This document shows positions 1,321 through 39,211 of a DNA stretch of 39,327 nucleotides, one piece after another; position 1 is the stretch's first letter, and every line of letters starts with the position of its first letter. The notes below the pieces were generated by a model. It had not been told where the DNA came from, ran no database searches, and was given only the letters and a program-made list of their open reading frames with translations. The translations under genes were made by a program, and so were the position numbers. Source of the stretch: a phage; assembly GCA_033696785.1 (NCBI GenBank), contig GCA_033696785.1_4550.1; one strand, 5' to 3'.

Positions 1321-1343
1321 TCTCCCTATAGTGATAGTTTAGT
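1321..1343 (-). promoter_or_regulatory. Phage RNAP promoter (phi10 equivalent)
   Basis: Plus strand tctccctatagtgatagtttagt, i.e. minus strand ACTAAACTATCACTATA-GGGAGA (-17 to +6). Confidence 0.85.
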
Positions 1344-2326: not shown

Positions 2327-2349
2327 TGTTCCTATAGTGATAGTTTAGG
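2327..2349 (-). promoter_or_regulatory. Phage RNAP promoter (phi9 equivalent)
   Basis: Plus strand cctatagtgatagtttagg immediately upstream of the scaffold gene. Confidence 0.85.
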
Positions 2350-5147: not shown

Positions 5148-5170
5148 AGTCCCTATAGTGATAGTTTAGT
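5148..5170 (-). promoter_or_regulatory. Phage RNAP promoter (phi6.5 equivalent)
   Basis: Plus strand ccctatagtgatagtttagtg. Confidence 0.85.
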
Positions 5171-5296: not shown

Positions 5297-6217
5297 TTAC
5301 ATGGATGGTGTCCACAGGATGACCTCCTTGGACTTAGGGTCATAGTCAGAGGCTCGACAAATACGAGCGACCTGAGCTTGTACCAGAAGTTCCTCCTCGG
5401 TCATCCCCGCTTTAGCAGCCAGAGTCACCATGCAGTCCCACAGCGTCATGTCGTCGCGCTTTGGATACTTCTTCCACTCAGTCTTAATCTGGCCTTTGTT
5501 CTTGCCAGTCTTAAGCTCACGTCTCTCCTGCACGAAGTAGTACGGCTCGTCAAGGAACGCGCGAGTGGTGTCCTCACCCATCCCCGGAATCCCGCCATAG
5601 CCATCTGTAGTGTCACCCTTGATGGTCTGCTCCATGTGCCAGTAGTCTGCCTCAGCAGTCGTATGACTCAGGATTTCACCAGTGGTTAACCAGAAGAACT
5701 CACAGTTCGGTATGGTCTTGAAGTCCTTATCGCAGGACACCAGCACCGCATGGTCACAGCCGACAATCTGAGGTCTGGTCCCGATGATACCCATACAATC
5801 ATCGCCTTCAAGCGTAGGACGCAGGAAGCTGTTGAACCGTGGGTCAGCCATCACTTCGGCTACGAACTTCTTGTAACCTACAGGCTTGCGCGAACCTTTA
5901 CGGTTGGCCTTATAGGTAGGCAGGACGTCCTTACGCCAGTTGTTATCGTCAGTAAAGCACATCACAATCTTAGCGTCTTTCCACGCCTTGCGCTTCTTAA
6001 CGATTTCATCGATGGTGTTATTAAGGATACGACGAGCCTTCTCGTGGTCGCAGATAAGGGTCCAGATGTCATCACCCCAGTCTGTCTCGTCCTCGGCAGC
6101 AGCCATAGAAGAGAACACTAAGTAGTCACCGTCCAGCACCAGAGCTATTTTCTTTTCGCTCACAGGCAGCCTCCGTGTTGGTTCAGGAACTTGGTGCCAG
6201 CAGCGGTAATCTCCCAC
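5297..6217 (-). CDS. 5'-3' exonuclease (T7 gp6 homolog)
   Basis: 306 aa with LVLDGDYLVFSSMAAAE and PVGYKKF motifs. The annotated start overlaps the upstream gene by 58 nt, so the true start may be a downstream non-ATG codon. Confidence 0.9.
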   Translation of the reverse strand: MGDYRCWHQVPEPTRRLPVSEKKIALVLDGDYLVFSSMAAAEDETDWGDDIWTLICDHEKARRILNNTIDEIVKKRKAWKDAKIVMCFTDDNNWRKDVLPTYKANRKGSRKPVGYKKFVAEVMADPRFNSFLRPTLEGDDCMGIIGTRPQIVGCDHAVLVSCDKDFKTIPNCEFFWLTTGEILSHTTAEADYWHMEQTIKGDTTDGYGGIPGMGEDTTRAFLDEPYYFVQERRELKTGKNKGQIKTEWKKYPKRDDMTLWDCMVTLAAKAGMTEEELLVQAQVARICRASDYDPKSKEVILWTPSM

Positions 6218-6674: not shown

Positions 6675-8824
6675 GTTGGTCCAATCTTACCTTCGGTATC
6701 AAGGACACATTTAAAGTTATAGAACTCACCCACCTTACGCATAGCAAGTTGAGCAATCTTGACGACTTCTTCGGCAATCTCCTGAGTACGACACGCAATC
6801 TGTAGCTCATCGTGAACCCAAGCCATGTACGCGAAGTCTCCTTCCCAGCCGTGGACATACCCGGCCTCTTCAAGCATACGTTCAGTCTCGACAATCCAGT
6901 GCTTACAGACAACCGCACCATCACCTTGAAGCAGAGCGTTAAGTGCTGAGTGTGGCGACCGGATGTGAATTCGCCGACCATCCAGACCTTTCAGCCAGCG
7001 ACGTTTCCACTTCACGATGTTTTCACCATCTACCCACTTCGACTCTGAGATGAGCGTGTTCTGCACAGCCTCTCGCAGGTCCTTGATCGCTGGTGTACCC
7101 TCAATGAATTTCTTCATCAGGGCTGCACCTTCCTTCTTACCACCACCAACTATCAGTCCAATCTTCGCGGCCCCTGCACCATACAGGAACGCATAGATGA
7201 ACGTCTTGGCGTTATTACGGAAAGCATCGTGGTCATGGCTCGACTTGTCGCGTGGGACGTTAGGTGCTAACCCAGCGTTGACTGCGTTGGCCCAGTGGAT
7301 GTCACCTTCGACCACAGTCTTCGCATAGTCGCCACCATCAAACGGAGCCGCTCGGTTCCCCAGACAACGAAGCTCAAGACCTGAAGCATCCACGCCTACT
7401 TGAATCCAAGGGTCTGGCTTACCGTCCTTCTTGTTCCACGCTGCACCGAAAGCACCACGGCAAGTCTCACCATACGGAGCACCGTTAGCCGGGACCTGAG
7501 CCATGTTTGGTGAACTATGGGTAGCACGTCCGGTTACTGCACCACATGGGTTGATTGAACCATGCATACGTCCGTCTGGACCTACAAGCTTCAACCATGC
7601 GTTCTTACCTTCAGCAGCCTGCCCGATGCGCTTCTGGACCACCAGATACTCACGGACCAGCTCTACGCAAGCCTGAGCCTCTGCGTCTGGTAACTTAACG
7701 TGTTCTAACGTCTCGTCATCAACTACAGGTTTCCCAGTGTCAGTGAAGTCCACAGGCTCCCAACCGCGCTCCATCAAGACTTTCGCTAAGTGGTCTCCGC
7801 TTCCCGGATTAAACTCAACGTAAGTGATTGGCGTGAATGGTGCTCCATCCATCGTGTCTCGCGTATCGCGTTCACAAGGTTCAAGACCTAAGCGTTGAGC
7901 TTTGTTCTTAGGTTTCTTAAAGATTCCACCGACCTTAGGATACACGACTCTCGGATACTTCGGAAGGTCCTTACCTGTCCGTGGATGCCTGAAAAACTCC
8001 TTGCCCCCCTTTGGTGCATACCAGCTACCAAAAGTAGAGCGCAGCTTGTCTAGTAACTCCGCACGTTTGACAGTGAGTTCACGATATAAGCCTTCGACCA
8101 TCTCGGTGTTCATCGGATAGCCGTTACGTTCCATCTTCGCACAGGTCCACGCAGCATCATGTTCCAGACGCAACGCATAAATCTGTTCGAAAGCGAACTG
8201 TTCAGACTGGAAGTAATACTTGTCAGTCAGGAACTTCTTGAACAACGCCAGTGTGACCACAACGTCCTGAACGTTATAGTCCAGCATCTCCTGAGACGGG
8301 AACAACCATTCGTCCCCAGACTTATATTCGATACCTTCGGCCTTGCACTTGGCAACGTAATCGTGTTTGTACTCACCCTTCATCTCACCGAGACGATAGC
8401 CCCAAGCCTCAAGAGACTGACGTCCCATCAGCTTAGGCGGCAGACGACCGGCTTTCACCGCGCCCATGTCTGAGAACTTAATGTTGGGATACATCAAGCG
8501 GCCCAGAACCAAGGTATCAATCATCTTGTGTTTCGGGAAGTTAAAGCGTTTCCCAAAGTACAGACGTTTCAGCTTGTCAATAGCCGGGACGTCGTAGTTG
8601 ATACCGTTATGGAAGACCAGCATACCCGTAGGCGTTGCAGCAATTTCTTCCACCTTCTGTACATACTCTTTGAAGCCACCGACGATACCGACCATCGGCG
8701 CTACACCATACTTAAGGGTCTCATTCGACTCGGCATTAATCAGGACCCCACAATGGAACTGGGACACGGTGTCAAGGAGACCGTTGGTCTCGATGTCGGA
8801 GCCATAAACGTTACTTAAATCCAT
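6656..8824 (-). CDS. DNA polymerase, family A (T7 gp5 homolog)
   Basis: 722 aa with an N-terminal 3'-5' exonuclease region (MDLSNVYGSDIETNGLL) and polymerase motifs (DASGLELR, FIYAFLYGAG). Confidence 0.97.
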   Translation of the reverse strand: MDLSNVYGSDIETNGLLDTVSQFHCGVLINAESNETLKYGVAPMVGIVGGFKEYVQKVEEIAATPTGMLVFHNGINYDVPAIDKLKRLYFGKRFNFPKHKMIDTLVLGRLMYPNIKFSDMGAVKAGRLPPKLMGRQSLEAWGYRLGEMKGEYKHDYVAKCKAEGIEYKSGDEWLFPSQEMLDYNVQDVVVTLALFKKFLTDKYYFQSEQFAFEQIYALRLEHDAAWTCAKMERNGYPMNTEMVEGLYRELTVKRAELLDKLRSTFGSWYAPKGGKEFFRHPRTGKDLPKYPRVVYPKVGGIFKKPKNKAQRLGLEPCERDTRDTMDGAPFTPITYVEFNPGSGDHLAKVLMERGWEPVDFTDTGKPVVDDETLEHVKLPDAEAQACVELVREYLVVQKRIGQAAEGKNAWLKLVGPDGRMHGSINPCGAVTGRATHSSPNMAQVPANGAPYGETCRGAFGAAWNKKDGKPDPWIQVGVDASGLELRCLGNRAAPFDGGDYAKTVVEGDIHWANAVNAGLAPNVPRDKSSHDHDAFRNNAKTFIYAFLYGAGAAKIGLIVGGGKKEGAALMKKFIEGTPAIKDLREAVQNTLISESKWVDGENIVKWKRRWLKGLDGRRIHIRSPHSALNALLQGDGAVVCKHWIVETERMLEEAGYVHGWEGDFAYMAWVHDELQIACRTQEIAEEVVKIAQLAMRKVGEFYNFKCVLDTEGKIGPTWKECH

Positions 8825-9216
8825 GTAGCACCTCCAATCGCTCGGGCTATTGTCCTATGCCCTACGCCGTATTTCTCTCCCAGAGAGCGGTGAGTCCATC
8901 CACCAGAAGCGTACAATCTCTTAGCCTCGGCTACAATTTCAGGTGTCAACTTGGCGCATCCCACTTTTACACCCTTTGCTGTACGTCCACGGACATCCCG
9001 GTCCTTAACGTTATCAGCTCGTGTCCCAAGCTCTAGGTGATCAGGGTTATAACATGACGGGTTGTCACACTTATGACGGACAACCAGTCCCTTTGGTATT
9101 GGACCATTAGCTTCCTCATACGCTATGAGATGTAGCCTACGGACTTTCCCATTGACCCTACGCATGCCATAGCCGAACTTATCTCGGCACCCGGTCCACT
9201 CAATACAGTCAATCAT
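8815..9216 (-). CDS. HNH homing endonuclease (paralog 1)
   Basis: 133 aa with CIEW..GYG and LVVRHKCDNPSCYNPDHLELGT core, between the primase/helicase and polymerase genes. Confidence 0.88.
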   Translation of the reverse strand: MIDCIEWTGCRDKFGYGMRRVNGKVRRLHLIAYEEANGPIPKGLVVRHKCDNPSCYNPDHLELGTRADNVKDRDVRGRTAKGVKVGCAKLTPEIVAEAKRLYASGGWTHRSLGEKYGVGHRTIARAIGGATWI

Positions 9217-9270: not shown

Positions 9271-9292
9271 TATCCTACAGTGATAGCTTAGT
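9270..9292 (-). promoter_or_regulatory. Phage RNAP promoter, CTGTAGG variant
   Basis: Plus strand cctacagtgatagcttag, i.e. minus strand AGCTATCACTGTAGG. Confidence 0.65.
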
Positions 9293-9494: not shown

Positions 9495-11198
<1,704 letters not shown>

Positions 11199-11249
11199 TC
11201 ACTCCTTAATCACAAATGCGAACAGAGGGACAGGACTCACGGTCCCATC

Positions 11250-11267
11250 CCAAGGTGATAGTTTAGG
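11250..11267 (-). promoter_or_regulatory. Degenerate phage promoter-like element
   Basis: Plus strand ccaaggtgatagtttagg keeps -17 to -6 of the consensus but replaces the -5 to -1 TATAG block. Confidence 0.35.
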
Positions 11268-11501: not shown

Positions 11502-11969
11502 TTAACCGTGGTCGGAAGTGACCAGTTCATTGGTAGACAGCCAGCGTTGCAAGTCGAAACTTGGACACGCCTTTGGTGCTACGTCATGGTGTGCTTTTAT
11601 TTCTGCCTGAGGATACAGGACCTTCAGGTCAGCCAGCTTGTTGCGCAGGGAGTTCATCTGGGCTGGAGTGAAGCTAGCTTCAAACTTGCCCTTAGCGTCG
11701 ATTCCACCTACAAGGCAGACGCCTACGGACCGGGAGTTCCAATCCTTAACGTGTGACCCTACGACATTGACCGGGCGACCCTCTTCCACAGTACCATCGC
11801 GCTTGATGATAAAGTGGTAGCCTACGTCCAGCCAGCCTTGCTGCTTGTGCCACATACGGATGGTCTCTACCCCGATGTCCATCTCTGGCTTGGTAGCCGA
11901 ACAGTGAACGAAGATAGCGTCAGTCCGGGACCGTGGGTTGAACTGTACCTTACTTACCATTATTTCCAC
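11502..11969 (-). CDS. N-acetylmuramoyl-L-alanine amidase / lysozyme (T7 gp3.5 homolog)
   Basis: 155 aa with IFVHCSATKP, QGWLDVGYHFIIKRDGTVEEGR and HHDVAPKACPSFD, near-identical to T7 lysozyme. Confidence 0.95.
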   Translation of the reverse strand: MEIMVSKVQFNPRSRTDAIFVHCSATKPEMDIGVETIRMWHKQQGWLDVGYHFIIKRDGTVEEGRPVNVVGSHVKDWNSRSVGVCLVGGIDAKGKFEASFTPAQMNSLRNKLADLKVLYPQAEIKAHHDVAPKACPSFDLQRWLSTNELVTSDHG

Positions 11970-12329
11970 CTCTTGTGGTTCCTGATTCGGCTTATGGTCG
12001 CCTCACTCACTGAGTATTTTGCAGCCATAAACTTAAGGGTCTCGCTTGAGGTGCGAATCTCCTTAACGTCCTCTTCAGTTAGTTTTGAATTAAATGTCCT
12101 GCGCACTGAGCAGTCCATCATGTTTTCCGCTTGAGTCCCAAGCTCAAGGTGCTTGATGTTTACGCACGAGCGGTTATCACACTTGTGTCTTACGACAAGA
12201 CCTTCTGGTATGACACCATTGCCTCTAGCCAAGCGGCTCTATGAGCACCCATAGATTGACCACGGAATTTACGTCTTCCGTAGCCGCCCTTGTTGAGACT
12301 CTTAGTCCATTCTATGCAATCACTTTCCA
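11960..12329 (-). pseudogene. HNH endonuclease (paralog 4) disrupted by a 1-nt frameshift
   Basis: N-terminal 46 codons (MESDCIEWTKSLNKGGYGRRKFRGQSMGAHRAAWLEA) are in one frame; the C-terminal part (GNGVIPEGLVVRHKCDNRSC...) is the track ORF 11960..12232 in another, starting at TTG just after an in-frame TAG. Confidence 0.65.
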
Positions 12330-12778: not shown

Positions 12779-13224
12779 TTAACTCCTTTCTTCTTTGGGA
12801 TGAGTATACCTGAAGGCAGACGTACAGTCGCCTCTCGAAGCCACTCAACCGGGATAAACTTATCGGCATACTTATAGCCGTTCTTTTCGCACCATGCGCC
12901 ATACGTGGTCGGAGACCCTTTGTATAGCTTGGAGCGGGAACTTGAGAACACGAACCGTATGTCTAACTCTGGGTGCTGTTCTCGTACCAGAAGGTGCTTC
13001 TTACGGTCATCACTATCGAAGATACCTTTGGTCTCAACGATGATACCGTTAGGAAGGATAAAGTCGGGCGTGTAAAAATGATCGCTAGCAGGTACTACAT
13101 ACATAATTTTATATGCCTCATACTCAGCCCGTACCCCGTTCTTCTCCAGCCACTCTTGGTTCTTTGCTTCAAGCCCAGAGCGATACGCTCCCACTTTATG
13201 TCCTCGACTAATTGTTCTTGTCAC
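12775..13224 (-). CDS. Endonuclease I, Holliday-junction resolvase (T7 gp3 homolog)
   Basis: 149 aa with YTPDFILPNGIIVETKG and DRKKHLLVREQHPELDIRFVFSS. Confidence 0.95.
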   Translation of the reverse strand: MTRTISRGHKVGAYRSGLEAKNQEWLEKNGVRAEYEAYKIMYVVPASDHFYTPDFILPNGIIVETKGIFDSDDRKKHLLVREQHPELDIRFVFSSSRSKLYKGSPTTYGAWCEKNGYKYADKFIPVEWLREATVRLPSGILIPKKKGVK

Positions 13225-13657
13225 GCTTACGCCTCCAGTTAATAGCCTGTGGAGTAACTCCGAACATCTTAGCTAGCTCACTATTGGGCCGCGAGGACTT
13301 CAGGATGAACTCTACGTCTTCCTCGGTCAGCTTAGTCTTATTGTTAGCTTCTCCTATGAACACTGGAGGTTTCGACTTTCGCCCCCTCTCCATGCAGTCC
13401 CTCATGTTGTCCTTCTGCGTACCTAGTTCAAGGTGCTCAGGGTTACAGCAGCAGGGGTTGTCGCATTTATGTCTAACCAACATTCCATCAGGAATAGGAC
13501 CTATGAACTCCATGTATGACACACGATGTGCATAGTCCTGTTTCTGTCTTCCTATTGATATTCGACCGTATCCAGTAGGGAACCGGGAGCGTTGCCACTC
13601 CCAGCACCCGGAGGGAGAAACCTCAGAGTAATCCTCCAGTTTCTCTTTTAGATTCAT
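13208..13657 (-). CDS. HNH homing endonuclease (paralog 2)
   Basis: 149 aa with GCWEW..GYG and LVRHKCDNPCCCNPEHLELGT, plus C-terminal KLTEEDV helix. Confidence 0.88.
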   Translation of the reverse strand: MNLKEKLEDYSEVSPSGCWEWQRSRFPTGYGRISIGRQKQDYAHRVSYMEFIGPIPDGMLVRHKCDNPCCCNPEHLELGTQKDNMRDCMERGRKSKPPVFIGEANNKTKLTEEDVEFILKSSRPNSELAKMFGVTPQAINWRRKRDKNN

Positions 13658-14395: not shown

Positions 14396-14418
14396 CTGTC
14401 CTACAGTGATAGTTTAGG
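14396..14418 (-). promoter_or_regulatory. Phage RNAP promoter (phi2.5 equivalent), CTGTAGG variant
   Basis: Plus strand tgtcctacagtgatagtttagg, overlapping the gp2 stop and upstream of the SSB gene. Confidence 0.75.
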
Positions 14419-15383: not shown

Positions 15384-15406
15384 TTGTCCTACAGTGATAG
15401 TTTAGG
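15384..15406 (-). promoter_or_regulatory. Phage RNAP promoter, CTGTAGG variant
   Basis: Plus strand gtcctacagtgatagtttaggg. Confidence 0.75.
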
Positions 15407-15442: not shown

Positions 15443-15477
15443 AAGCAAAGAAACCCAGCAGTCCGAAGACCACTGGG
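15443..15477 (-). terminator. Intrinsic terminator after the ligase gene (TE-like early terminator)
   Basis: Minus-strand RNA CCCAGUGGUC-UUCG-GACUGCUGGG (10-bp stem, UUCG tetraloop) followed by UUUCUUUGCUU; same position as T7 TE. Confidence 0.7.
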
Positions 15478-15488
15478 TTGACGTTTAG

Positions 15489-17051: not shown

Positions 17052-17074
17052 TAATCCTATAGTGATAGTTTAGG
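17052..17074 (-). promoter_or_regulatory. Phage RNAP promoter (phi1.1 equivalent)
   Basis: Plus strand aatcctatagtgatagtttagg. Confidence 0.85.
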
Positions 17075-17148: not shown

Positions 17149-17364
17149 TCATTTGGTCTGCTCCAGCTTGGACACTGCGTCTTTCAGGTATTTCTCGTGG
17201 CTGGATTCCACAAGATAGACGAGGGTCTTGAATGGTACGTTAAGCTGCTTTGACATTTCGGTAGGAATGACCGTGGTCTTCACCAGACCCTTGCCGTTGT
17301 GTTCTGTTACGGTCACGATTTGAGTCCCGCCCTTAACGCCAGCCTGCTTGTGTGCAAATTTCAT
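17149..17364 (-). CDS. Hypothetical protein, 71 aa
   Basis: Immediately after the RNAP gene. A 25-codon hydrophobic ORF (MTDLQLLALWLGALAVFTLTQRRRG) follows with an ATGA overlap. Confidence 0.5.
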   Translation of the reverse strand: MKFAHKQAGVKGGTQIVTVTEHNGKGLVKTTVIPTEMSKQLNVPFKTLVYLVESSHEKYLKDAVSKLEQTK

Positions 17365-17378
17365 AACTCTCTCTCCTG

Positions 17379-20060
17379 TTAAGCGAATGCAAAGTCTGAA
17401 GACAAGATGTCTTCGATATTCAGTTTACCTTTCTTCGGAAGCTCAGGCAACTTGTCGCGCTGGCTCTCGTGAAGCTGGTATTCAAACTGCTCGTAGAAGT
17501 CAAGCAGCACATCGTTGTCGCGGTAGGTCTCGACCATCGTCTCACGGACACCACGGAACAGATACTCAGCGTCAGCCGGGATGGTCCCGAAGCTATCGTG
17601 AATCACTGCGAACGACATCACGCCATACTTGCGGTGAGTGTGGACTACAGTCTTGCGGAGGTGGCTACCATCTTGTGAGTGGACGAAGTTCGGGCTAATG
17701 CCTGACTCCTGCTTGTGCTTGTCAAGCTCTTTCTTCGTTCCTTTGTTGACTGTAGGCTGAAGGTTGAATGACCCTAAGAACATCAGGTTCAGACGAGTGG
17801 TATCCTTCTTGCGGTATTCCTGCCATACCGGGAAGCCATCAGGTGTTACCCAGTGAACCGGAAGGCATGGCTTAAGGATTTCTCCAGTCTTCTTGTCCTT
17901 CACTTCAGCAGCCAGCAGCTTGGCGGCACCTTGAAGCCACTTCATAGCGTCTACCGCAGCAACTACGGTCACACTCACAGCTTCCCAAATCATCTTAGCC
18001 ATGAAGCGAGACGCTTGGCTTGGCTCGGTGAACATAGCGCCAGACCCTGAGTCAATCGCTGGCATCACGATGTCCTCATAAACTTGGTCTGCGAAGCCAT
18101 ACTCTTTCGACCCATAGGCCAGAGTCATGACTGAACGCTTAGTGACCTTGCGTGACATACCGTAAGTCAGCCACTGCCGGGCCAGCTCTCGTGTCCCCAG
18201 CTTGAGACGTTCGGTAATCTCACCAGTTTTCTTGTCCTCGTGAGTTACCATCTCGTTGTCCGTGCCGTTAACCAGCAGGACTTTAAGCTCTTCCTCAATG
18301 CGGTCTGACACGATTCGGTAGATGTCTTGGACCTTACCGGAAGGCGTCAGGTTTACTGCATGTCCACCGATGTGATCACGAAGCATTGCGCTAAAGTGCT
18401 GAATCCCAGAGCAGGACCCATCGAATGCTATCGGCAGCGAGCAGGAGTAAGACAATCCGTGATGCATTACGCCAGCATACTCGAAGCAGAACGCTAGGAA
18501 GCAGAACGGAGAGTCTAACTTTCCCCACCACTCAATGCTGTCCATCGGTGCCTTAGCGGTAGCCATGATGTTGTCGTGGTTATCTTCCACCCACTTGATT
18601 CGCTCCTCGAAGGTTACTTTATCAATGCCCGCACAGTTTGCACCGTGGACCTTCAGCCATTTGAAACCATCAGCACCAATAGGCTTACCGACTGCCAGAG
18701 TCAGAAGACCCTTTTGCATGTCGTTACCCTGAGGGTTGAACATCGGCACAGCGTAGACGCGACCGCGCCAGTCCATGTTGTACGGAAACCAGATAGCCTT
18801 GAACTGAGAGAACTTGTTCGCTTGGTTAACGATAAAGCTCAGTGACAATCTACGTGACTGCCGGGCCTTCTCTCGGCGGTAGATACCAGCAGCAGCCTTC
18901 TTCCATGCCTTGAGTTCCTCTTCAGTCTCACCCGCATAGTCTTCAGGCTTCAGTGGCTCCATCTGAGGGATGTCGTCAATAGGCGTGTTGTTCAACTTCT
19001 CGACCATGTTCACCACGTCCAGAACCTTCTTGTTCACTTTCCAAGGTGTATTCTGGATGATGTTGACAGCGTCATAGACTTCAGGCATGTACACGTCTTC
19101 GTAACGTGCCACCGCAGACTTAGACCCTAAGCGAATCAATGGTAACGGTCTGCGACCTTTGGCCCAGTACCCACCGCCTACGACACCCGTCCACGGCTTA
19201 GGTGGAACGACGCAAGGCTGATAGACTGGTGCGATACCCGCAAGGCTGAATCCACGTTGTGCCATCTTCTTGACCCAGAAGCCTGACAGGTGGACCATCT
19301 CAACATCAGCCGCTGCATTGCCAGCACCATAACGCTTAAGCTCGACAAGTTGTGTTGACTGGATGACAATCTCAAGCATCTTGATGCCAACATGGACCGC
19401 CTCGGTCGGACTCCAAGTTCCCCACGCATCTTCCAGTTGACCCTGCTCCAGCATGGAGGCCTCAACCGCTTGCATGTAGGCTTTCTTGTAGGATGACCCA
19501 GCTCGCTTGTTCAGGTTCTCAGCTATCGCCTTCTTGAAGTGCTCCTTCTCCTTGTCACGGATGCGACCGAAGCGGATTTCGTCCTCAAGTGTGCGACCTA
19601 TCGCTGAGGCCATCGGTGTAATCGGTATCCCTTCAGGCTTGACCAGCTTGGAGAGGATGACCTTCAGTATAATAACTGCAGCAGACTCGCAAGAGATACG
19701 CAGAGAGCGGTCCTTGACGGCCTTCTCTTCAGTGCTCAACATGGTGAACGCTACGCTAGGACGAGAGGTTGACAGCTTCCCGTCTGGACCTTCATGCCAC
19801 TCCCTGACGGCTTGCGCAATCTTAGGGACCAGAGTCTGCATCAAAGGCTTGGCTACCTGATTGTCTGCCAGTTCCCCGCGCTCAGTCTGTCGCTCAAGGT
19901 TTTTGATGAAACGTCGCTCGCCTTCAGTGTATGCCTCATGCTCAAGCTGAAGCTGTTTGACTGCAAGATCTTGCCCGTAGTGGTCAGCCAGCAGGTTAAA
20001 CGGCTCAATGGCGTTCGACACATCAGAGAAGTCGTGTTTGTCAATAGAGATGACGCTCAT
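17379..20060 (-). CDS. Single-subunit DNA-dependent RNA polymerase (T7 gp1 homolog)
   Basis: 893 aa colinear with T7 RNAP, including catalytic motifs and C-terminal FAFA. Specificity-loop region reads FNLQPTVNKGTKKELDKHKQ (T7: FRLQPTINTNKDSEIDAHKQ). Confidence 0.98.
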   Translation of the reverse strand: MSVISIDKHDFSDVSNAIEPFNLLADHYGQDLAVKQLQLEHEAYTEGERRFIKNLERQTERGELADNQVAKPLMQTLVPKIAQAVREWHEGPDGKLSTSRPSVAFTMLSTEEKAVKDRSLRISCESAAVIILKVILSKLVKPEGIPITPMASAIGRTLEDEIRFGRIRDKEKEHFKKAIAENLNKRAGSSYKKAYMQAVEASMLEQGQLEDAWGTWSPTEAVHVGIKMLEIVIQSTQLVELKRYGAGNAAADVEMVHLSGFWVKKMAQRGFSLAGIAPVYQPCVVPPKPWTGVVGGGYWAKGRRPLPLIRLGSKSAVARYEDVYMPEVYDAVNIIQNTPWKVNKKVLDVVNMVEKLNNTPIDDIPQMEPLKPEDYAGETEEELKAWKKAAAGIYRREKARQSRRLSLSFIVNQANKFSQFKAIWFPYNMDWRGRVYAVPMFNPQGNDMQKGLLTLAVGKPIGADGFKWLKVHGANCAGIDKVTFEERIKWVEDNHDNIMATAKAPMDSIEWWGKLDSPFCFLAFCFEYAGVMHHGLSYSCSLPIAFDGSCSGIQHFSAMLRDHIGGHAVNLTPSGKVQDIYRIVSDRIEEELKVLLVNGTDNEMVTHEDKKTGEITERLKLGTRELARQWLTYGMSRKVTKRSVMTLAYGSKEYGFADQVYEDIVMPAIDSGSGAMFTEPSQASRFMAKMIWEAVSVTVVAAVDAMKWLQGAAKLLAAEVKDKKTGEILKPCLPVHWVTPDGFPVWQEYRKKDTTRLNLMFLGSFNLQPTVNKGTKKELDKHKQESGISPNFVHSQDGSHLRKTVVHTHRKYGVMSFAVIHDSFGTIPADAEYLFRGVRETMVETYRDNDVLLDFYEQFEYQLHESQRDKLPELPKKGKLNIEDILSSDFAFA

Positions 20061-20129
20061 ACTTAAAGTCCTTGTTATTAGTCTTTCACTTAAAGTCTCT
20101 TTGGTCTTTCACTTGGAGTCTTAGACCTT

Positions 20130-20152
20130 GAGTCCTATAGTGATAGTTAAGT
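20130..20152 (-). promoter_or_regulatory. Phage RNAP promoter directly upstream of the RNAP gene
   Basis: Plus strand agtcctatagtgatagttaagt; +1 about 70 nt upstream of the RNAP start codon. Confidence 0.7.
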
Positions 20153-22820: not shown

Positions 22821-22843
22821 CTTCCCTATAGTGATAGTTAAGT
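22821..22843 (-). promoter_or_regulatory. Phage RNAP promoter (phiOR equivalent)
   Basis: Plus strand cttccctatagtgatagttaagt, about 95 nt past the terminase stop, firing toward the genome end. Confidence 0.8.
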
Positions 22844-25754: not shown

Positions 25755-28337
25755 TTACCTAAGCGCAATCCGCACACGCTTAATCACCACATCTCCCCCA
25801 AATGTACTAGGAGATGAATACCCGAACTTAATCTTAGACAGGAGCTCAGATAATAGGCTGGTAATCGCGTGGGTGTTGGTGTTCCCAATCTTGAAGCCAT
25901 CCACAGTACGGAGAGCTGCAACCTTGGCCTTTAAGTCCACATCATGGATTAACGTGTAGTCTCGACCAGCAGTCATAGGGAAAGACGCTGAGGACGTTAA
26001 GTCCGTTGCTTGACCTGAGCTGGAAGTCGTGGCTCGAAGCTGTAGACCTGCCGTCACCTGATACATAGAGCGGTCCCCTGTAGTGGCCTCACCGAGGGAT
26101 AAGACGTGCGCAGCTCCAGACGGTGCATACATCTCAATCTCTACAGTCAGACGCTTGAAGGACAGCCCCGGTTCCATGTAGTCTGCCATGTCGATATACG
26201 CCCGGTTGTTTGACCCGAAGCGCGCCCCTATAACCACGTTCTCAGAGTCCCGCACATATTCTATTGCACCGTTGATGAAGGTCAGCTTGGTGAACAGGTT
26301 GTATACGCCTCCAGATTTTGGACTCAACTTGTTGGACACCGCAAGTGTGCCAGACCTGAAGTCGGCCTCGATGTCGAACTTGAGGGGCTCTGGACCTGCT
26401 GAGTTGAACCAGTAGTCCAATGGCGGTGGATAGATTCTGGAGCTGGCCTTAGCAGTAGGGTGATTAAGACCGTTACCGCCGTCTATACTCGTACTGTAGA
26501 TGTCGTAATCCGTGAGAGACGCAGCTACCGGAACCTCTAATCCAGCCATGATGTCCACCCTAATCTGGCCTGTGCCTCCAATCCTCGGAGTGAACTTACC
26601 ACCGAAACGGATAATGTTTCCAGAAAATATAGGCTTTGTGTTCTTCCCAATGAACACCGTCAGTACATCACCATTAAGGGACATATGAATCTCTTGGTCG
26701 ACCACTGGCGCTGGTCCATCTCCTAACACGTTAAGCGTCATCCCCAGAGATGTCCCAGTGTAGTGCTGTAAACGCCACTTCCCTAACGCGCTTTTATATG
26801 AAAGGGTGACGAAGTTGTTCGTTAAAGACGATAGGTACATCTGGATGCCATTAACAAGGACAGCAGGGTCCACTACAGTGAGTCGTACCGAGTAGCACGG
26901 AACTTTCGACGTATAGGTATACGGGAGGTCTACCAGAGTCGATATTGTGGAGCGACGGAAGCTAAATACGCAGGGGTCTACCCCATCACGCAGAGACTTA
27001 AAGTGGCGATGGATGTCTATGAAGCTATACCCCGCAAACTTAGCATACGAACGGGTCCATCCAGCAATAGCGTCGCGTCCAGACTGTTGTTCCTCTGTGG
27101 CAGTGGCCGGGTTAACGGTAGACGGTAAGATGTTCGTGCAGAACACCAGCTCAGGTTCACTAGAGATAGACCGAAGTTCTTCGACCATCTTGTAGAACAC
27201 TGGCTGCTGGAAGTTACCTACGTCCCATCCCGGACCATCGTTCATGCCGAACGCGATGAAGATTACATCAGGCTTGGCCTCTTCGATATACGACATCCAG
27301 CGACGTGATCTATCAGTGAACCACGGGTATCCATCGCCAAGTCTTGCAGGCGGCTCATCACGGCCTAAGTCATAATATCGCATCCCGCCGATGGCTCGGT
27401 TGATAAACTCTGCCGACGGATTAGTCTCGTGGACCTTGCGTCGAAGATATGACTCAAATAGGGACGTGATGTTTGCGGTGTCGATGTTGTAGAAGCTGCT
27501 CAGTGAGTCCCCAACCAGAAGGACACGACAACCATGAGTCGCTAATCTGGCCTTAGCCTTAGCTGTAGCCGTACCGAAGGACATCGGAGAGTCTTCTGCG
27601 TGAAGTGACTCAGCTAGGGTCTGACCAGTGGCTGTTCCAATTCGCCCAGCACCAGAGGTCTGACCGAGGTCACTACGGAGACTAGCGTCGGCAACATTAA
27701 CCCACTTACCAGCGCCGACCCCACCAGCGGTTGCTGGAGTCGAACCGGGAGCAACTACCTTAGGTACAGCCCCATCCCAGCGGTAATAACTGAGGTCGGC
27801 ATCATTCCAGAGAACCTCGTTCCACTCTTTGATTGTGTACCCTAATGTGAAGGATCCAACGGGCGGACGAACCGTTACATAACCACCCACGCCCATGTTT
27901 CGAATCTTCTCAGCGAGACGTGCGGCCTCATTCTCAGAAGCCTTGGCTTGGTTAGCAGACGTCAGGGCTGAGTCAGCATATTCCTTCGCAAGGTCTGCTG
28001 TCTGGTCGCGGCCCTCTTCAGCGATGTGGATTGCCTGAAGTTCTGCGTTGGTCAGGTCACTTGCGGTCAGTACCGAACCATCACGAAAAGCAACCACTAA
28101 GTCTGTTGCCGTCTGCCTACGAACCTGAACAACGTCAAATCCAGTCTGAGACACTAAGACCTCTATGGTCGTCGGGTTCAGGAACCTATAGTCTTTATTT
28201 GGAGTCAGAACCTTATTAAGGGCCTGATTACTAGTACGTACTAGGGTGACTACCACAAAGGACCGAGACAAGTAGTCAAACGGTATCTTGAACTGAGTTG
28301 GCCCTGACGGGTAGTTATTAATCGTAATCTTAGCCAT
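25755..28337 (-). CDS. Tail fiber protein (T7 gp17 N-terminal adaptor fused to an SGNH/GDSL hydrolase-like domain and C-terminal beta-rich region)
   Basis: 860 aa; first ~150 aa match the T7 gp17 attachment domain (KIPFDYLSRSFVVVTL, YRF, LTASDL, IHIAEEGRD). Residues about 270-450 carry RVLLVGDSLSS, IFIAFGMNDGP and FIDIHRHF. Confidence 0.9.
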   Translation of the reverse strand: MAKITINNYPSGPTQFKIPFDYLSRSFVVVTLVRTSNQALNKVLTPNKDYRFLNPTTIEVLVSQTGFDVVQVRRQTATDLVVAFRDGSVLTASDLTNAELQAIHIAEEGRDQTADLAKEYADSALTSANQAKASENEAARLAEKIRNMGVGGYVTVRPPVGSFTLGYTIKEWNEVLWNDADLSYYRWDGAVPKVVAPGSTPATAGGVGAGKWVNVADASLRSDLGQTSGAGRIGTATGQTLAESLHAEDSPMSFGTATAKAKARLATHGCRVLLVGDSLSSFYNIDTANITSLFESYLRRKVHETNPSAEFINRAIGGMRYYDLGRDEPPARLGDGYPWFTDRSRRWMSYIEEAKPDVIFIAFGMNDGPGWDVGNFQQPVFYKMVEELRSISSEPELVFCTNILPSTVNPATATEEQQSGRDAIAGWTRSYAKFAGYSFIDIHRHFKSLRDGVDPCVFSFRRSTISTLVDLPYTYTSKVPCYSVRLTVVDPAVLVNGIQMYLSSLTNNFVTLSYKSALGKWRLQHYTGTSLGMTLNVLGDGPAPVVDQEIHMSLNGDVLTVFIGKNTKPIFSGNIIRFGGKFTPRIGGTGQIRVDIMAGLEVPVAASLTDYDIYSTSIDGGNGLNHPTAKASSRIYPPPLDYWFNSAGPEPLKFDIEADFRSGTLAVSNKLSPKSGGVYNLFTKLTFINGAIEYVRDSENVVIGARFGSNNRAYIDMADYMEPGLSFKRLTVEIEMYAPSGAAHVLSLGEATTGDRSMYQVTAGLQLRATTSSSGQATDLTSSASFPMTAGRDYTLIHDVDLKAKVAALRTVDGFKIGNTNTHAITSLLSELLSKIKFGYSSPSTFGGDVVIKRVRIALR

Positions 28338-31400: not shown

Positions 31401-32293
31401 GCCTTCTCTTGGTCCAACTTCTGGTTCTCAAGCGCCAAGTTAATCAGCTCTGTCAGATTCTGAGGAGAACCGCCAGTAATGACTCCGTAATACTGAGGCA
31501 GAACCCCAGCGTTACGAATCTGGTCCAGCTCCTCACGAGACCACTTATGGTTGTTCCATCGGGTTGGGTTGAACACATCGCCAATGACATCCAGTGAGTC
31601 CTCAGTCTGACCAGCTCGTATAGCCACGCCGACCATAGAGTTCTTCACTTCAGCTTCTGTAGCCGCACCGAAACCGAACCACGTAGAGCGGTCCTCTCGT
31701 TCCTGCATGGTCTCTCCAGTAGCCTTATAGAACATCTCACCGAACGATTCGTTGGGAGCTTCAGGTGCTTGACCCTCAATGTTCAGACCAGCAGCGGTCG
31801 GAAGGTTCTCACCCAGAGCCACTTTAGGTTTAGCCTTGAGTCCTTCCGTGAGTGCGTCAAATACGGTAGCGCTTACTGGTGGAGTCTTTGGGCTGATACC
31901 GTTGAGTGCTCTTGCTACCCCCTGTTGGTAGACTTCAGGGTCGTACCGGGAGCCTGTCTCGTGGTAGCCTATAGCCTCAGACAGAGAGGCGAGGACGTCA
32001 GGGTTCGTCAGGTCGAGACTTTGTGTTGCTGGAATGCCGGTCGCAGCCACAACAGAGTTGATGTAGGACTGAGTGTCATTCTCATTAGGCGGCGCCCAGC
32101 GGTTGATAATCTTCTCGATGGAGTCATAACCTTGGCGACCGTAGCTTTGAAGGTTTTTAGCTAAAGCTCGTACCCCAGATTCAGGACTATCGAATATAAC
32201 GAATGCACCATCATCCCCTACTGCACCTTCCCATTGGTCTTTGGACTTACGGATATTTCCCGGATTTGAATTTCTTACTCCACGTGTTGCCAT
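28406..32293 (-). CDS. Internal virion protein D (T7 gp16 homolog) with a divergent N-terminal domain
   Basis: 1295 aa; body colinear with T7 gp16 (SPTGMQSGASGK, KGTYVPHVY, NNSFLEARNLFDSD, AYNRRVNGDIAIM). The first ~130 aa (NSNPGNIRKS...WEG) lack the T7 transglycosylase motif I recall. Confidence 0.93.
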   Translation of the reverse strand: MATRGVRNSNPGNIRKSKDQWEGAVGDDGAFVIFDSPESGVRALAKNLQSYGRQGYDSIEKIINRWAPPNENDTQSYINSVVAATGIPATQSLDLTNPDVLASLSEAIGYHETGSRYDPEVYQQGVARALNGISPKTPPVSATVFDALTEGLKAKPKVALGENLPTAAGLNIEGQAPEAPNESFGEMFYKATGETMQEREDRSTWFGFGAATEAEVKNSMVGVAIRAGQTEDSLDVIGDVFNPTRWNNHKWSREELDQIRNAGVLPQYYGVITGGSPQNLTELINLALENQKLDQEKAKAGTGAQLAAGVIGAGVDPLTYVPIAGQVGKGGKLINKMFTVAAQSGALAGASEIARTSVAGGDAHVAEAIIGGALFGGGMTAIADGLGRALGRNTNEFAGPAIRLEARETARNVDGQDLSRMPIREGEETFSHQGVKFADVPNEPGSVRLEDGSILIGENPLNPKTRQVFDEVIEPERAAAGVNLGGLTEIGLKLLRSENPEIRGVAADLVRSPTGMQSGASGKIGTTASDVFERLRAVDHRFYNDIDNAVTEALKDPYFQTAFWRDSGAFRQDIYQRVSMAIEDGSGNLKAELTPGELKVYDLLKNQFDAKREMMENPAMFGRPDAQSIFPGSHFKGTYVPHVYSKQMKELYIKELGSPEALQEAIKKSWLTSYASRPEVKKRVDEALLEADPTLTPEGLAAAVDKYANDKAYGISHTEQFERSSVMEENINGLVGLENNSFLEARNLFDSDMSIVLPNGQTFSVNNLREWDMDKIVPAYNRRVNGDIAIMAGTGKTTKDMKDLVETMMNKAGDDGKLKGEVSTLRDTLKILTGRARRDGADDAAFATVMRTMTDLSFFAKNAYMGVQNLTEIGGMLARGNVRALLHGVPMFRDLAFRNKKVGASEIKDLHNVLFGKELDDSIRPSKQDVIDRLRSYSDLGRGTATALGTAKYYTGELAVRSPFTKLLNGTTNYLLDAGRQGFLSDIVEHSLTGSKRKFDDRWLKTAGISDEQWKGIKSLIRESVTRGPDGKYTIKDKKSFSQDPRAMDLWRMGDTIADETLLRPHKLSNMDAKAYGPLAKTVLQFKNFVIKSINGRTMRTFYNATKNNRAMDAALSTVMSMGLAGIYYMAQAHVKAYAMQDGRDREYLKQALDPTMIGYAALSRSSHLGGPLGVANILGGIAGYEDTKMLRSSILPRSPTEKPERAIPYGAAKSDPVMNVVGNFLEQVPAFGYAANVGASAYNLAGYLKADTRVNERDYMTGMYNTFRELVPNDPITQKLLLGTFEEQGIHIKD

Positions 32294-32724
32294 GTCTTTC
32301 TCCTCAAGATATTTCTAATAGAAACCGTACTCACTCCATATCGTTCCGCTAAGAGTGAAACCTTTAGGCCGCTGGACCTTATGTCTCTCACGATTTCTTC
32401 AGTGAGCTTAGATACTCCTATGGAGCATCCTGACGCTTGGCGACCTCTAGTCACCTTATCCTTTATGTTGTCAGCTTGGGTGCCGACTTCAAGGTGGCTT
32501 GGGTTTATACAGGACGGGTTGTCGCATTTATGACGAACAACGTATCCATCGGGTATAGGACCATTAGCAAGCTCGTAGGCAAGTCTATGTGCTCCATATT
32601 TCACCCTATTAATCATTATCCTTCCATAGCCGGATTTATCAATGCTTCCGGTGAATCGGATACAGCCAGACTCTTCGGCTACTGACAGTTCTGCCAGTCT
32701 CTCACTGGCTGTCCCGTTCTTCAT
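32275..32724 (-). CDS. HNH homing endonuclease (paralog 3) in the structural module
   Basis: 149 aa with GCIRF..GYG and YVVRHKCDNPSCINPSHLEVGT, between the gp15 and gp16 genes. Confidence 0.88.
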   Translation of the reverse strand: MKNGTASERLAELSVAEESGCIRFTGSIDKSGYGRIMINRVKYGAHRLAYELANGPIPDGYVVRHKCDNPSCINPSHLEVGTQADNIKDKVTRGRQASGCSIGVSKLTEEIVRDIRSSGLKVSLLAERYGVSTVSIRNILRRKTWQHVE

Positions 32725-36101: not shown

Positions 36102-36124
36102 TAGTCCCTATAGTGATAGTTAAG
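36102..36124 (-). promoter_or_regulatory. Phage RNAP promoter (phi13 equivalent) inside a 12-bp inverted repeat
   Basis: Plus strand gtccctatagtgatagttaagg, flanked by AAGGGCCTATAG (36092-36103) and CTATAGGCCCTT (36132-36143). Confidence 0.8.
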
Positions 36125-36150
36125 GTAAAATCTATAGGCCCTTCAATAAG

Positions 36151-38517: not shown

Positions 38518-38645
38518 GTGCCCTCCAGATACTTAGCAGCGTTTAGTAGAATCTCACGGGAGTCCTTGAAGCCTCCTAGAGACTTATTGCAGTGCCTGCA
38601 GAGAAGACCTCTAACCTCGCCAGTTGCGTGGTTGTGACTAGCCAT
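38493..38645 (-). CDS. Endonuclease VII-like (HNH superfamily) mini-ORF
   Basis: About 50 aa hand-translated: MASHNHATGEVRGLLCRHCNKSLGGFKDSREILLNAAKYLEGTCRLSRKA. The H.H.TG.VRGLLC..CN..LG block is the Endonuclease_7 signature as I recall it. Not in the ORF track. Confidence 0.45.
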   Translation of the reverse strand: MASHNHATGEVRGLLCRHCNKSLGGFKDSREILLNAAKYLEGTCRLSRKA

Positions 38646-39211
38646 TAGTCCCTCCCGATGTCAGACATCATGTTGTAGCGACCAGTGTCCATCTCATACT
38701 CCATAACCTGCTGATAGAGTTCTGCTTCCTGCTCACGAAGGTATAGCTCTGACTCTGGGCTACCGAAGAACTTAGCGTTGAACTCACGGCTGGCTTTAGT
38801 GACGATGTAGTCCCTGAAGACCACAGGCATCTCAGAGAATGGTTTCATCTCCACAAGCTCTACCGTGATCGGGTCGGTGAAAGTGGTTGACTGAGTGGAT
38901 AGGTCGTACAGGTATCCACCCATGTTGCTGTAGTAGCTGGTGGCCCCAGCGGTCATTACACGGAGGTATGACGGCAGGAATCGAATCCTATTGTCTTGGA
39001 CATCAGGTGTCAGGACAGCAGCTTCGTTAATGTTAAAGTTCCATCCTTTAGCTTGGACCTGACGATTGACACGATGCAGGATACGTTGAGCATTCGAGAC
39101 GTCAGCGTTACCTTCGTCAAGCTGTAGTACTGCTGGTTCACCGATAGCAGCTAACATATCGTTGATGGCATCTAAGTCATCGTTAGCATTCAGTGGAATG
39201 TATTGAGACAT
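38645..39211 (-). CDS. Tail tubular protein A (T7 gp11 homolog)
   Basis: 188 aa with LAAIGEP, ANA.RIL, GYLYDL.TQST and FRDYIVTKASREFN matching T7 gp11. Confidence 0.95.
   Translation of the reverse strand: MSQYIPLNANDDLDAINDMLAAIGEPAVLQLDEGNADVSNAQRILHRVNRQVQAKGWNFNINEAAVLTPDVQDNRIRFLPSYLRVMTAGATSYYSNMGGYLYDLSTQSTTFTDPITVELVEMKPFSEMPVVFRDYIVTKASREFNAKFFGSPESELYLREQEAELYQQVMEYEMDTGRYNMMSDIGRD

What the first reader, a model, noticed from the sequence alone, without database searches (positions are those of the whole stretch)
17379..20152. Promoter consensus unlike T7/T3/SP6/K11, with matching changes in the RNAP specificity loop
Eleven intact promoters share minus-strand 5'-ACTAAACTATCACT(A/G)TAGG-3'. 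The initiation region is T7-like, but -8 to -12 reads ACTAT where T7 has CGACT. The polymerase recognition-loop region reads FNLQPTVNKGTKKELDKHKQ against T7 FRLQPTINTNKDSEIDAHKQ, so the base-contacting residues differ. This looks like a distinct polymerase-promoter pair, possibly orthogonal to the standard ones.
Basis: partly seen in the sequence, partly recalled or inferred. Interest (0 to 1): 0.7.

Follow-up and report, generated by a model that had tools for sequence, protein, structure and literature searches.

The report
Known K1F-type phage polymerase and promoters

Summary
Eleven minus-strand sites match ACTAAACTATCACTRTAGG (0.02 expected by chance), and a degenerate twelfth lies upstream of gene 4.

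The pair is not new. The window is a Kayfunavirus genome. Its polymerase is 884/893 identical to phage K1F gp1, and the specificity loop is 100% identical. K1F itself carries the same eleven-promoter set. In T7 numbering the loop differs from T7 within Q744-I761 by Q754S, R756N and I761V, and the promoter differs by ACTAT for CGACT at -12 to -8. That is exactly the "K1F" graft of Temme et al. 2012, which did not cross-react with T7, T3 or N4 promoters.

Native K1F polymerase is used as an orthogonal expression and mutator system. The 94%-identical Ro45lw enzyme was purified and its minimal promoter mapped as ACTTAACTATCACTATAGGGA; its first 19 bases occur verbatim twice in the window.

Only one of the four T7 base-contacting residues changes (R756N), not all of them. 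Interest is low.

The parts
17379..20060 (-). Gene 1: single-subunit T7-like RNA polymerase, 893 aa
   Evidence: Pfam RNA_pol (1.9e-106) and RPOL_N. 884/893 identical to K1F gp1, 94.4% to Ro45lw, 63.9% to T7. Closest solved structures are T7 RNAP entries 1ARO and 1CEZ.
17721..17816 (-). Codons for the specificity loop, residues 749-780 (T7 739-770): YRKKDTTRLNLMFLGSFNLQPTVNKGTKKELD. Key residues are R756, N758, N766 and Q768, equivalent to T7 R746, N748, R756 and Q758.
   Evidence: Identical to K1F. An identical 61-aa segment occurs in 136 phage records.
19752..19784 (-). Codons for the counterpart of the T7 AT-rich recognition loop (T7 93-101): DGKLSTSRPSV against T7 KAKRGKRPT. An 11-residue insertion absent from T7 and T3 follows.
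20134..20152 (-). Phage promoter ACTTAACTATCACTATAGG. +1 is at 20135, 75 nt upstream of the polymerase gene's own ATG.
   Evidence: Annotated as a promoter at the same place in EcoDS1 and PE3-1.
22825..22843 (-). Phage promoter ACTTAACTATCACTATAGG downstream of gene 19 (phiOR position).
   Evidence: The K1F equivalent is at 38852.
17056..17074 (-). Phage promoter CCTAAACTATCACTATAGG, downstream of gene 1 and the small ORF 17149-17364 (phi1.05/1.1 position).
   Evidence: The K1F equivalent is at 5552.
15388..15406 (-). Phage promoter CCTAAACTATCACTGTAGG (phi1.6 position, after the ligase gene and the early terminator).
   Evidence: EcoDS1 annotates phi1.6 at the same place.
15452..15479 (-). 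Terminator-like hairpin (12-pair stem plus T-rich tail) between the ligase gene and phi1.6. This is the position of the early terminator TE for the host polymerase.
   Evidence: EcoDS1 annotates TE at the equivalent place.
14400..14418 (-). Phage promoter CCTAAACTATCACTGTAGG (phi2.5 position, before the SSB gene).
   Evidence: The K1F equivalent is at 8499.
11249..11267 (-). Degenerate twelfth site CCTAAACTATCACCTTGGG upstream of gene 4, with changes at -4, -3 and -1.
   Evidence: The K1F equivalent at 10866 is also degenerate.
9274..9292 (-). Phage promoter ACTAAGCTATCACTGTAGG before an HNH-like ORF and gene 5 (DNA polymerase).
   Evidence: Ro45lw has one at the equivalent place. K1F has no site at the equivalent place among its 11 matches.
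5152..5170 (-). Phage promoter ACTAAACTATCACTATAGG (phi6.5 position).
2331..2349 (-). Phage promoter CCTAAACTATCACTATAGG (phi9 position).
1325..1343 (-). Phage promoter ACTAAACTATCACTATAGG followed by GAGA (phi10 position, before the major capsid gene).
36107..36125 (-). Phage promoter CCTTAACTATCACTATAGG (phi13 position).
   Evidence: One base (-17) from the Ro45lw promoter tested in vitro (PMC12272871).
28392..28410 (-). Phage promoter ACTAAACTATCACTATAGG (phi17 position, before the tailspike gene).

Best explanation
This is the late-transcription system of a Kayfunavirus (K1F-like, T7 supergroup) phage, consisting of gene 1 and its promoters. Gene 1 encodes a single-subunit RNA polymerase. 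Eleven 19-23 bp promoters, all pointing in the direction of the genes, sit at the T7-type positions: before gene 1, 1.05/1.1, 1.6, 2.5, before gene 5, 6.5, 9, 10, 13, 17 and phiOR.

The mechanism is inferred by homology to T7 RNAP (63.9% identity; promoter-complex structure 1CEZ). The host polymerase first transcribes the early region, including gene 1, up to the terminator after the ligase gene. The phage polymerase then binds its promoters. Its beta-hairpin specificity loop enters the major groove at about -7 to -11, and an N-terminal loop reads the AT-rich -13 to -17 segment. It melts the conserved TATA at -4 to -1 and starts at GG.

Specificity differs from T7 because T7 R756, which reads the G:C pair at -9, is Asn here. 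Q754S and I761V accompany this change. The promoter correspondingly carries ACTAT instead of CGACT at -12 to -8.

This is the already-characterised K1F specificity class. It is orthogonal to T7, T3 and N4-type promoters.
For: Identity:
- The RNAP gene DNA is 96.5% identical to Kayfunavirus records. 221 phage records cover at least 80% of the query.
- Nucleotides 1-25000 of the window are about 94-95% identical to Kayfunavirus BDX03P1 over 93% of their length.
- The protein is 884/893 identical to K1F gp1, with no difference between residues 502 and 893.
- K1F carries 11 sites of the same motif at the syntenic positions. Gene order is collinear with K1F.

Specificity determinants:
- The residues at T7 positions 748/756/758 are N/N/Q, unlike T7, T3, K11 and SP6.
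- Within T7 Q744-I761 the only differences from T7 are Q754S, R756N and I761V.
- PMC11880802 Table 2 lists Temme's K1F graft as '632S, 754S, 756N, 761V' with cognate promoter 'ACTAT'.

Function:
- Temme 2012 (PMC3458549) reports 17-fold induction of PK1F by T7(K1F) and calls each of its RNAPs 'highly orthogonal'.
- Native K1F RNAP with PK1F raised on-target mutation frequency 46,470-fold, against 6- to 27-fold on non-cognate promoters (PMC12218169).
- Purified Ro45lw RNAP is 94.4% identical to the window enzyme. Its loop differs only at M760L and T775S. It initiates at G of ACTTAACTATCACTATA|GGGA, and the 5' end cannot be trimmed (PMC12272871).
- The first 19 nt of that promoter occur at window 20134 and 22825.
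- Sparklingdew, another Kayfunavirus, has the published consensus CTWAACTATCACTATAGG (PMC13298934).
Against: No experiment has been done on this exact protein, which has 9 substitutions relative to K1F. None of them lies in the specificity loop, the intercalating hairpin or the AT-rich loop proper.

N748 is conserved although -10 and -11 differ from T7. The simple one-residue/one-base account is therefore incomplete.

PMC11880802 describes the 2012 grafted set as showing 'a limited extent of orthogonality', with non-cognate pairings still relatively active. Its Table 2 gives that set an orthogonality score of 8.

In the papers read here, native K1F-class enzymes were not tested against K11 or SP6 promoters.
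Confidence: 0.95

Rival explanations
1. A truly new specificity class. The polymerase and promoters form a pair not matched by any characterised single-subunit RNAP.
For: They do differ from T7, T3, K11 and SP6 in both promoter and loop.
Against: The loop is 100% identical to K1F. An identical 61-aa loop segment occurs in 136 phage records, and 205 records are at least 95% identical. The promoter consensus equals that of K1F, EcoDS1, Ro45lw and Sparklingdew. The pair has been characterised experimentally.
Confidence: 0.02
2. The repeated 19-mers are not promoters but another dispersed element, such as packaging, replication or recombination signals, or homing-endonuclease targets.
For: The motif alone does not prove transcription. 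One site (9274) sits just upstream of an HNH-like ORF.
Against: All sites are co-oriented with the genes and sit at T7-type promoter positions. They share the TCACTATAGG initiation core of T7 promoters. The same 21-mer drives start-site-mapped transcription by a 94%-identical purified enzyme. They are annotated as promoters in EcoDS1, Ro45lw and PE3-1.
Confidence: 0.02

Closest known systems
Phage K1F gp1 RNA polymerase with K1F promoters (PK1F); genus Kayfunavirus, Autographiviridae, Studiervirinae
   Same: 99% protein identity and an identical specificity loop. Both have eleven promoter sites matching the motif (one search lists K1F's degenerate gene-4 site among its eleven). The same consensus (A/C)CT(A/T)AACTATCACT(A/G)TAGG and the same gene order. 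Both have a phage promoter 75 nt upstream of gene 1.
   Different: Nine conservative or surface-type substitutions in the N-terminal 501 residues. The window has a promoter before gene 5 that K1F lacks, additional HNH ORFs, and a different tailspike C-terminal part.
Escherichia phage Ro45lw RNA polymerase (purified and characterised; Takatsuki et al. 2025, PMC12272871)
   Same: 94.4% identity. The 748/756/758-equivalent residues are the same. The minimal promoter ACTTAACTATCACTATAGGGA matches window sites.
   Different: 50 substitutions, two of them in the loop (M760L, T775S; neither at a base-contacting position). By pattern scan Ro45lw has no phage promoter directly upstream of gene 1.
T7(K1F) chimeric polymerase of Temme et al. 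2012 and the K1FR sigma fragment of Segall-Shapiro et al. 2014
   Same: Carries exactly the window's loop changes within T7 Q744-I761 (Q754S, R756N, I761V). Its promoter has ACTAT at -12..-8.
   Different: It has a T7 scaffold with R632S, and the promoter keeps T7's TAATA at -17..-13. The natural enzyme also has a different AT-rich recognition loop, an 11-residue insertion, and natural promoters with ACTAA or CCTAA at -17..-13.
T7 RNA polymerase and the T7 promoter TAATACGACTCACTATAGGGAGA
   Same: Same fold family (63.9% identity). Identical -8 to +2 initiation region TCACTATAGG. R746, N748 and Q758 are conserved.
   Different: R756N, Q754S, I761V and the hairpin tip. The promoter differs at -12 to -9 and at -17 to -14. 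T7 has no phage promoter directly upstream of gene 1.

Membership tests
T7-like single-subunit RNA polymerase (Pfam RNA_pol PF00940 + RPOL_N PF14700) | Sequence membership above the curated thresholds | tested here: met
   PF00940 scores 357 bits (cut-off 22); PF14700 scores 52.8 bits (cut-off 30.1); full-length match to T7 RNAP structures 1ARO and 1CEZ.
T7-like single-subunit RNA polymerase (Pfam RNA_pol PF00940 + RPOL_N PF14700) | Conserved motifs around the catalytic residues (T7 D537, K631, D812) | tested here: met
   alignment: AFDGSCSGIQHF (T7 D537), TKRSVMTLAYGS (T7 K631) and IHDSFGT (T7 D812) are conserved. The residue roles come from PMC12272871.
K1F specificity class (K1F cluster of PMC11880802; K1F subfamily of Temme 2012) | Residues at T7 positions 748/756/758 are N/N/Q, and the beta-hairpin is identical to K1F | tested here: met
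   N758, N766 and Q768. Residues 740-800 are identical to K1F.
K1F specificity class (K1F cluster of PMC11880802; K1F subfamily of Temme 2012) | Cognate promoters carry ACTAT at -12 to -8 | tested here: met
   10 of 11 sites read ACTAT and one reads GCTAT. PMC11880802 Table 2 gives ACTAT for the K1F graft.
K1F specificity class (K1F cluster of PMC11880802; K1F subfamily of Temme 2012) | The polymerase transcribes from these promoters and not from T7 or T3 promoters | not testable with these tools
   Shown only for relatives: the T7(K1F) graft, native K1F RNAP and Ro45lw RNAP. Inferred here from 99% identity and the identical loop.
Genus Kayfunavirus | Genome-wide nucleotide similarity and synteny with K1F and EcoDS1 | tested here: met
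   93-95% identity over about 90% of the first 25 kb to many Kayfunavirus records; collinear with K1F genes 0.3 to 19.

The most novel reading that the evidence does not exclude
The most novel reading left open concerns the natural K1F-class enzyme rather than the loop graft. It may have a second, unstudied specificity layer: a rebuilt AT-rich recognition loop (DGKLSTSRPSV against T7 KAKRGKRPT), an 11-residue insertion, and the -17..-13 sequence (A/C)CT(A/T)A in place of TAATA. It may also amplify its own synthesis through the conserved phage promoter 75 nt upstream of gene 1, which T7 and T3 lack. Either could make the native pair more tightly orthogonal, or kinetically different, compared with the engineered T7(K1F).
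Probability: 0.3. Interest if true: 0.25.

Novelty: already known. Interest (0 to 1): 0.08.

Why it matters
It matters little as a discovery. The K1F polymerase-promoter pair is an established orthogonal part in synthetic biology, and its promoter consensus has been published for several Kayfunavirus genomes. The window adds one more natural variant: 9 substitutions relative to K1F, all outside the DNA-recognition elements. It also adds one more promoter set supporting the same consensus. The useful result is negative. The finding should not be pursued as a new specificity class.

Tried and rejected
- I looked for a stable RNA structure, such as an RNase III site like T7 R1, in the 75-nt leader between the gene-1-proximal phage promoter and the ATG. 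The fold is no better than shuffles (z = -0.21).
- The sigma-70 promoter scan of the early region gave no enrichment over shuffles (7 found against 7.1 expected). Host promoters were therefore not mapped.
- I tried to read Chen & Schneider 2005 (PMC1275584). It is not held. A search did not find the K1F genome paper of Scholl & Merril 2005, which I recall from memory, so the original K1F promoter description could not be quoted.
- The supplement to Temme 2012, which holds the part sequences, is not held. The loop and promoter content of the graft was taken from Table 2 of PMC11880802 instead.
- I considered that the nine substitutions relative to K1F might touch recognition elements. They are at residues 86, 113, 181, 189, 260, 330, 374, 479 and 501, so none falls in the specificity loop (749-780) or the AT-rich loop counterpart (93-103).

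Full report
**Observation**

The motif search finds 11 matches to ACTAAACTATCACTRTAGG. All are on the minus strand and carry 0-2 mismatches. Dinucleotide-preserving shuffles give 0.02 expected matches.

A looser scan adds one degenerate site, CCTAAACTATCACCTTG|GGA, with +1 at 11250 upstream of gene 4. No site lies on the plus strand.

Aligned on the initiation core, positions -16, -15, -13, -11 to -4 and -2 to +2 are invariant. Position -12 is A in 10 of 11 sites, -3 is A or G, -17 is A or C, and -14 is A or T.

Positions -12 to -8 read ACTAT where T7 reads CGACT. The T7 sequence was checked on phi1.1A and phi1.1B in the T7 record.

The ORF at 17379-20060 (-) encodes 893 aa with Pfam RNA_pol and RPOL_N domains. 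Its closest solved structures are T7 RNAP entries such as 1CEZ.

**What the window is**

The window is a complete, circularly permuted, reverse-complemented genome of a K1F-like phage (genus Kayfunavirus).
- The RNAP region is 96.5% identical in DNA to Kayfunavirus BDX03P1, and 95-96% identical to PhiNW-B1, Vec13, EcoDS1, CLB_P1 and many others.
- The first 25 kb is about 94-95% identical over 93% of its length to the best records.
- Every major ORF maps collinearly onto K1F genes 0.3 to 19.

**The polymerase**

It is 884/893 identical to K1F gp1. The nine differences are at residues 86, 113, 181, 189, 260, 330, 374, 479 and 501, so the C-terminal 392 residues, including the whole specificity loop, are identical.

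A seven-way alignment with T7 numbering shows the following.

| T7 position | Window, K1F, Ro45lw | T7 | T3 | K11 | SP6 |
|---|---|---|---|---|---|
| 746 | R | R | R | R | R |
| 748 | N | N | D | K | R |
| 756 | N | R | R | N | K |
| 758 | Q | Q | Q | K | S |

Only one of the four residues that hydrogen-bond bases in T7 is changed (R746, N748, R756, Q758; as summarised in PMC11880802). That residue is R756, which becomes Asn. Within T7 Q744-I761 the full difference from T7 is Q754S, R756N and I761V.

**The promoters**

K1F itself has 11 matches to the same motif at the syntenic positions, one of them its degenerate gene-4 site. EcoDS1, Ro45lw and PE3-1 annotate them as promoters. The published consensus for another Kayfunavirus, Sparklingdew, is CTWAACTATCACTATAGG (PMC13298934).

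By synteny the window's sites sit as follows:

| +1 position | Location |
|---|---|
| 22826 | phiOR position, after gene 19 |
| 20135 | 75 nt before gene 1 |
| 17057 | after gene 1 |
| 15389 | phi1.6, after ligase and a TE-like terminator at 15479-15452 |
| 14401 | phi2.5 |
| 11250 | degenerate site before gene 4 |
| 9275 | before an HNH ORF and gene 5 |
| 5153 | phi6.5 |
| 2332 | phi9 |
| 1326 | phi10 |
| 36108 | phi13 |
| 28393 | phi17 |

**Prior characterisation**

- Temme et al. 2012 (PMC3458549) grouped T7-like RNAPs by beta-hairpin. They noted that each hairpin subfamily has its own -12..-7 consensus. They grafted the K1F hairpin (T7 Q744-I761) into T7 RNAP and changed the T7 promoter accordingly. 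They measured 17-fold induction and described each of the four RNAPs (T7, T3, K1F, N4) as highly orthogonal.
- Table 2 of PMC11880802 states the graft explicitly: "632S, 754S, 756N, 761V" with promoter "ACTAT". These are exactly the window's loop substitutions and promoter pentamer. The same paper defines a K1F cluster in its specificity network. It characterises the 2012 grafted set as showing only "a limited extent of orthogonality" and gives it an orthogonality score of 8.
- Segall-Shapiro et al. 2014 (PMC4299498) built a K1FR sigma fragment on the same loop.
- Native K1F RNAP with PK1F is used as an expression and mutator system in Halomonas, Pseudomonas and E. coli. On-target mutation frequency rose 46,470-fold, against 6- to 27-fold on the MmP1 and VP4 promoters (PMC12218169).
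- Ro45lw RNAP is 94.4% identical to the window enzyme, with loop differences only at M760L and T775S. It was purified, its start site mapped to the first G, and its minimal promoter determined as ACTTAACTATCACTATAGGGA (PMC12272871). The first 19 nt of that sequence occur verbatim at window 20134 and 22825.

**How common the pair is**

The 61-aa loop segment is identical in 136 phage records and at least 95% identical in 205. Only 15 further records fall between 80% and 95%, and T7 is at 75%. The class is discrete and large.

**Mechanism**

The mechanism is inferred by homology to T7.
1. The host polymerase transcribes the early genes, including gene 1, up to the TE-like terminator.
2. The phage polymerase then recognises its promoters. 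The specificity hairpin sits in the major groove at about -7 to -11, and an N-terminal loop reads -13 to -17.
3. It opens the conserved TATA and starts at GG.

The change of R756 to Asn matches the loss of the G:C pair at -9, which is A:T here. N748 is retained although -10 and -11 differ. The code is therefore not a simple one-to-one mapping, and Q754S, I761V or the backbone context presumably contribute. That last point is my inference and was not tested.

**Verdict**

Novelty is "already known" and interest is low.

**Residual points of mild interest**

- The native enzyme's counterpart of the AT-rich recognition loop is altered and is followed by an 11-residue insertion. This is paired with a different -17..-13 sequence, which the T7-scaffold grafts do not capture.
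- The phage promoter immediately upstream of gene 1 is highly conserved. 184 records hold this 126-nt stretch, 172 of them at 95% identity or more. The T7 and T3 records annotate none there.

Noticed in passing
window 20134-20152 (-), leader 20061-20135: A phage-type promoter sits 75 nt upstream of the polymerase gene's own start codon, so the polymerase may amplify its own synthesis. The 126-nt promoter-leader stretch is present in 184 phage records, 172 of them at 95% identity or more. It is annotated as a promoter in EcoDS1 and PE3-1. A pattern scan does not find it in Ro45lw. The T7 and T3 records annotate only an E. coli promoter and, in T3, an RNase III site there. The leader has short direct repeats (AAGTGAAAGAC twice, GACTTTAAGT twice) but no fold better than shuffles.
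   Followed up: partly
window 15388-15406, 14400-14418, 9274-9292 (-): The three promoters in the DNA-metabolism (class II) region all carry G at -3 (TCACTGTAGG) and start GGA. All eight others have A at -3, and five of them start GGG. This suggests a systematic strength or regulation difference between classes, as in T7.
   Followed up: no
window 19719-19784 (-), protein residues 93-114: The counterpart of the T7 AT-rich recognition loop is rebuilt (DGKLSTSRPSV against KAKRGKRPT). An 11-residue insertion absent from T7, T3 and SP6 follows; K11 has a longer insertion at the same place. This parallels the different -17..-13 promoter segment ((A/C)CT(A/T)A against TAATA), which loop-graft experiments did not carry over.
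   Followed up: partly
window 8815-9216, 11960-12232, 13208-13657, 32275-32724 (all -): Four ORFs have weak to moderate similarity (33-51% identity) to the K1F HNH homing endonuclease. They are inserted between conserved genes: before gene 5, between genes 3.5 and 3, between genes 3 and 2.5, and between genes 15 and 16. Unlike K1F, the DNA polymerase gene is uninterrupted in this window.
   Followed up: no
window 25755-28337 (-): The gene 17 product (860 aa) matches the K1F endosialidase tailspike only over its N-terminal 226 residues (63% identity). The receptor-binding part is different, so the host capsule or O-antigen specificity is probably not K1.
   Followed up: no
window 11249-11267 (-): A degenerate promoter-like site lies upstream of gene 4, with changes at -4, -3 and -1. 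The equivalent K1F site (10866) is degenerate too, with a slightly different sequence. It may be a conserved weak or inactive promoter.
   Followed up: partly
whole window: The window is a complete genome that is reverse-complemented and circularly permuted relative to the conventional T7-type map. Gene 10 is at 175-1218 and gene 11 at 38645-39211. The physical ends and terminal repeat should lie between about 21500 and 22900. The best genome-wide DNA match is about 94-95% identity over 93% of the first 25 kb. That may fall below the usual 95% species threshold (the threshold is from my own knowledge).
   Followed up: partly
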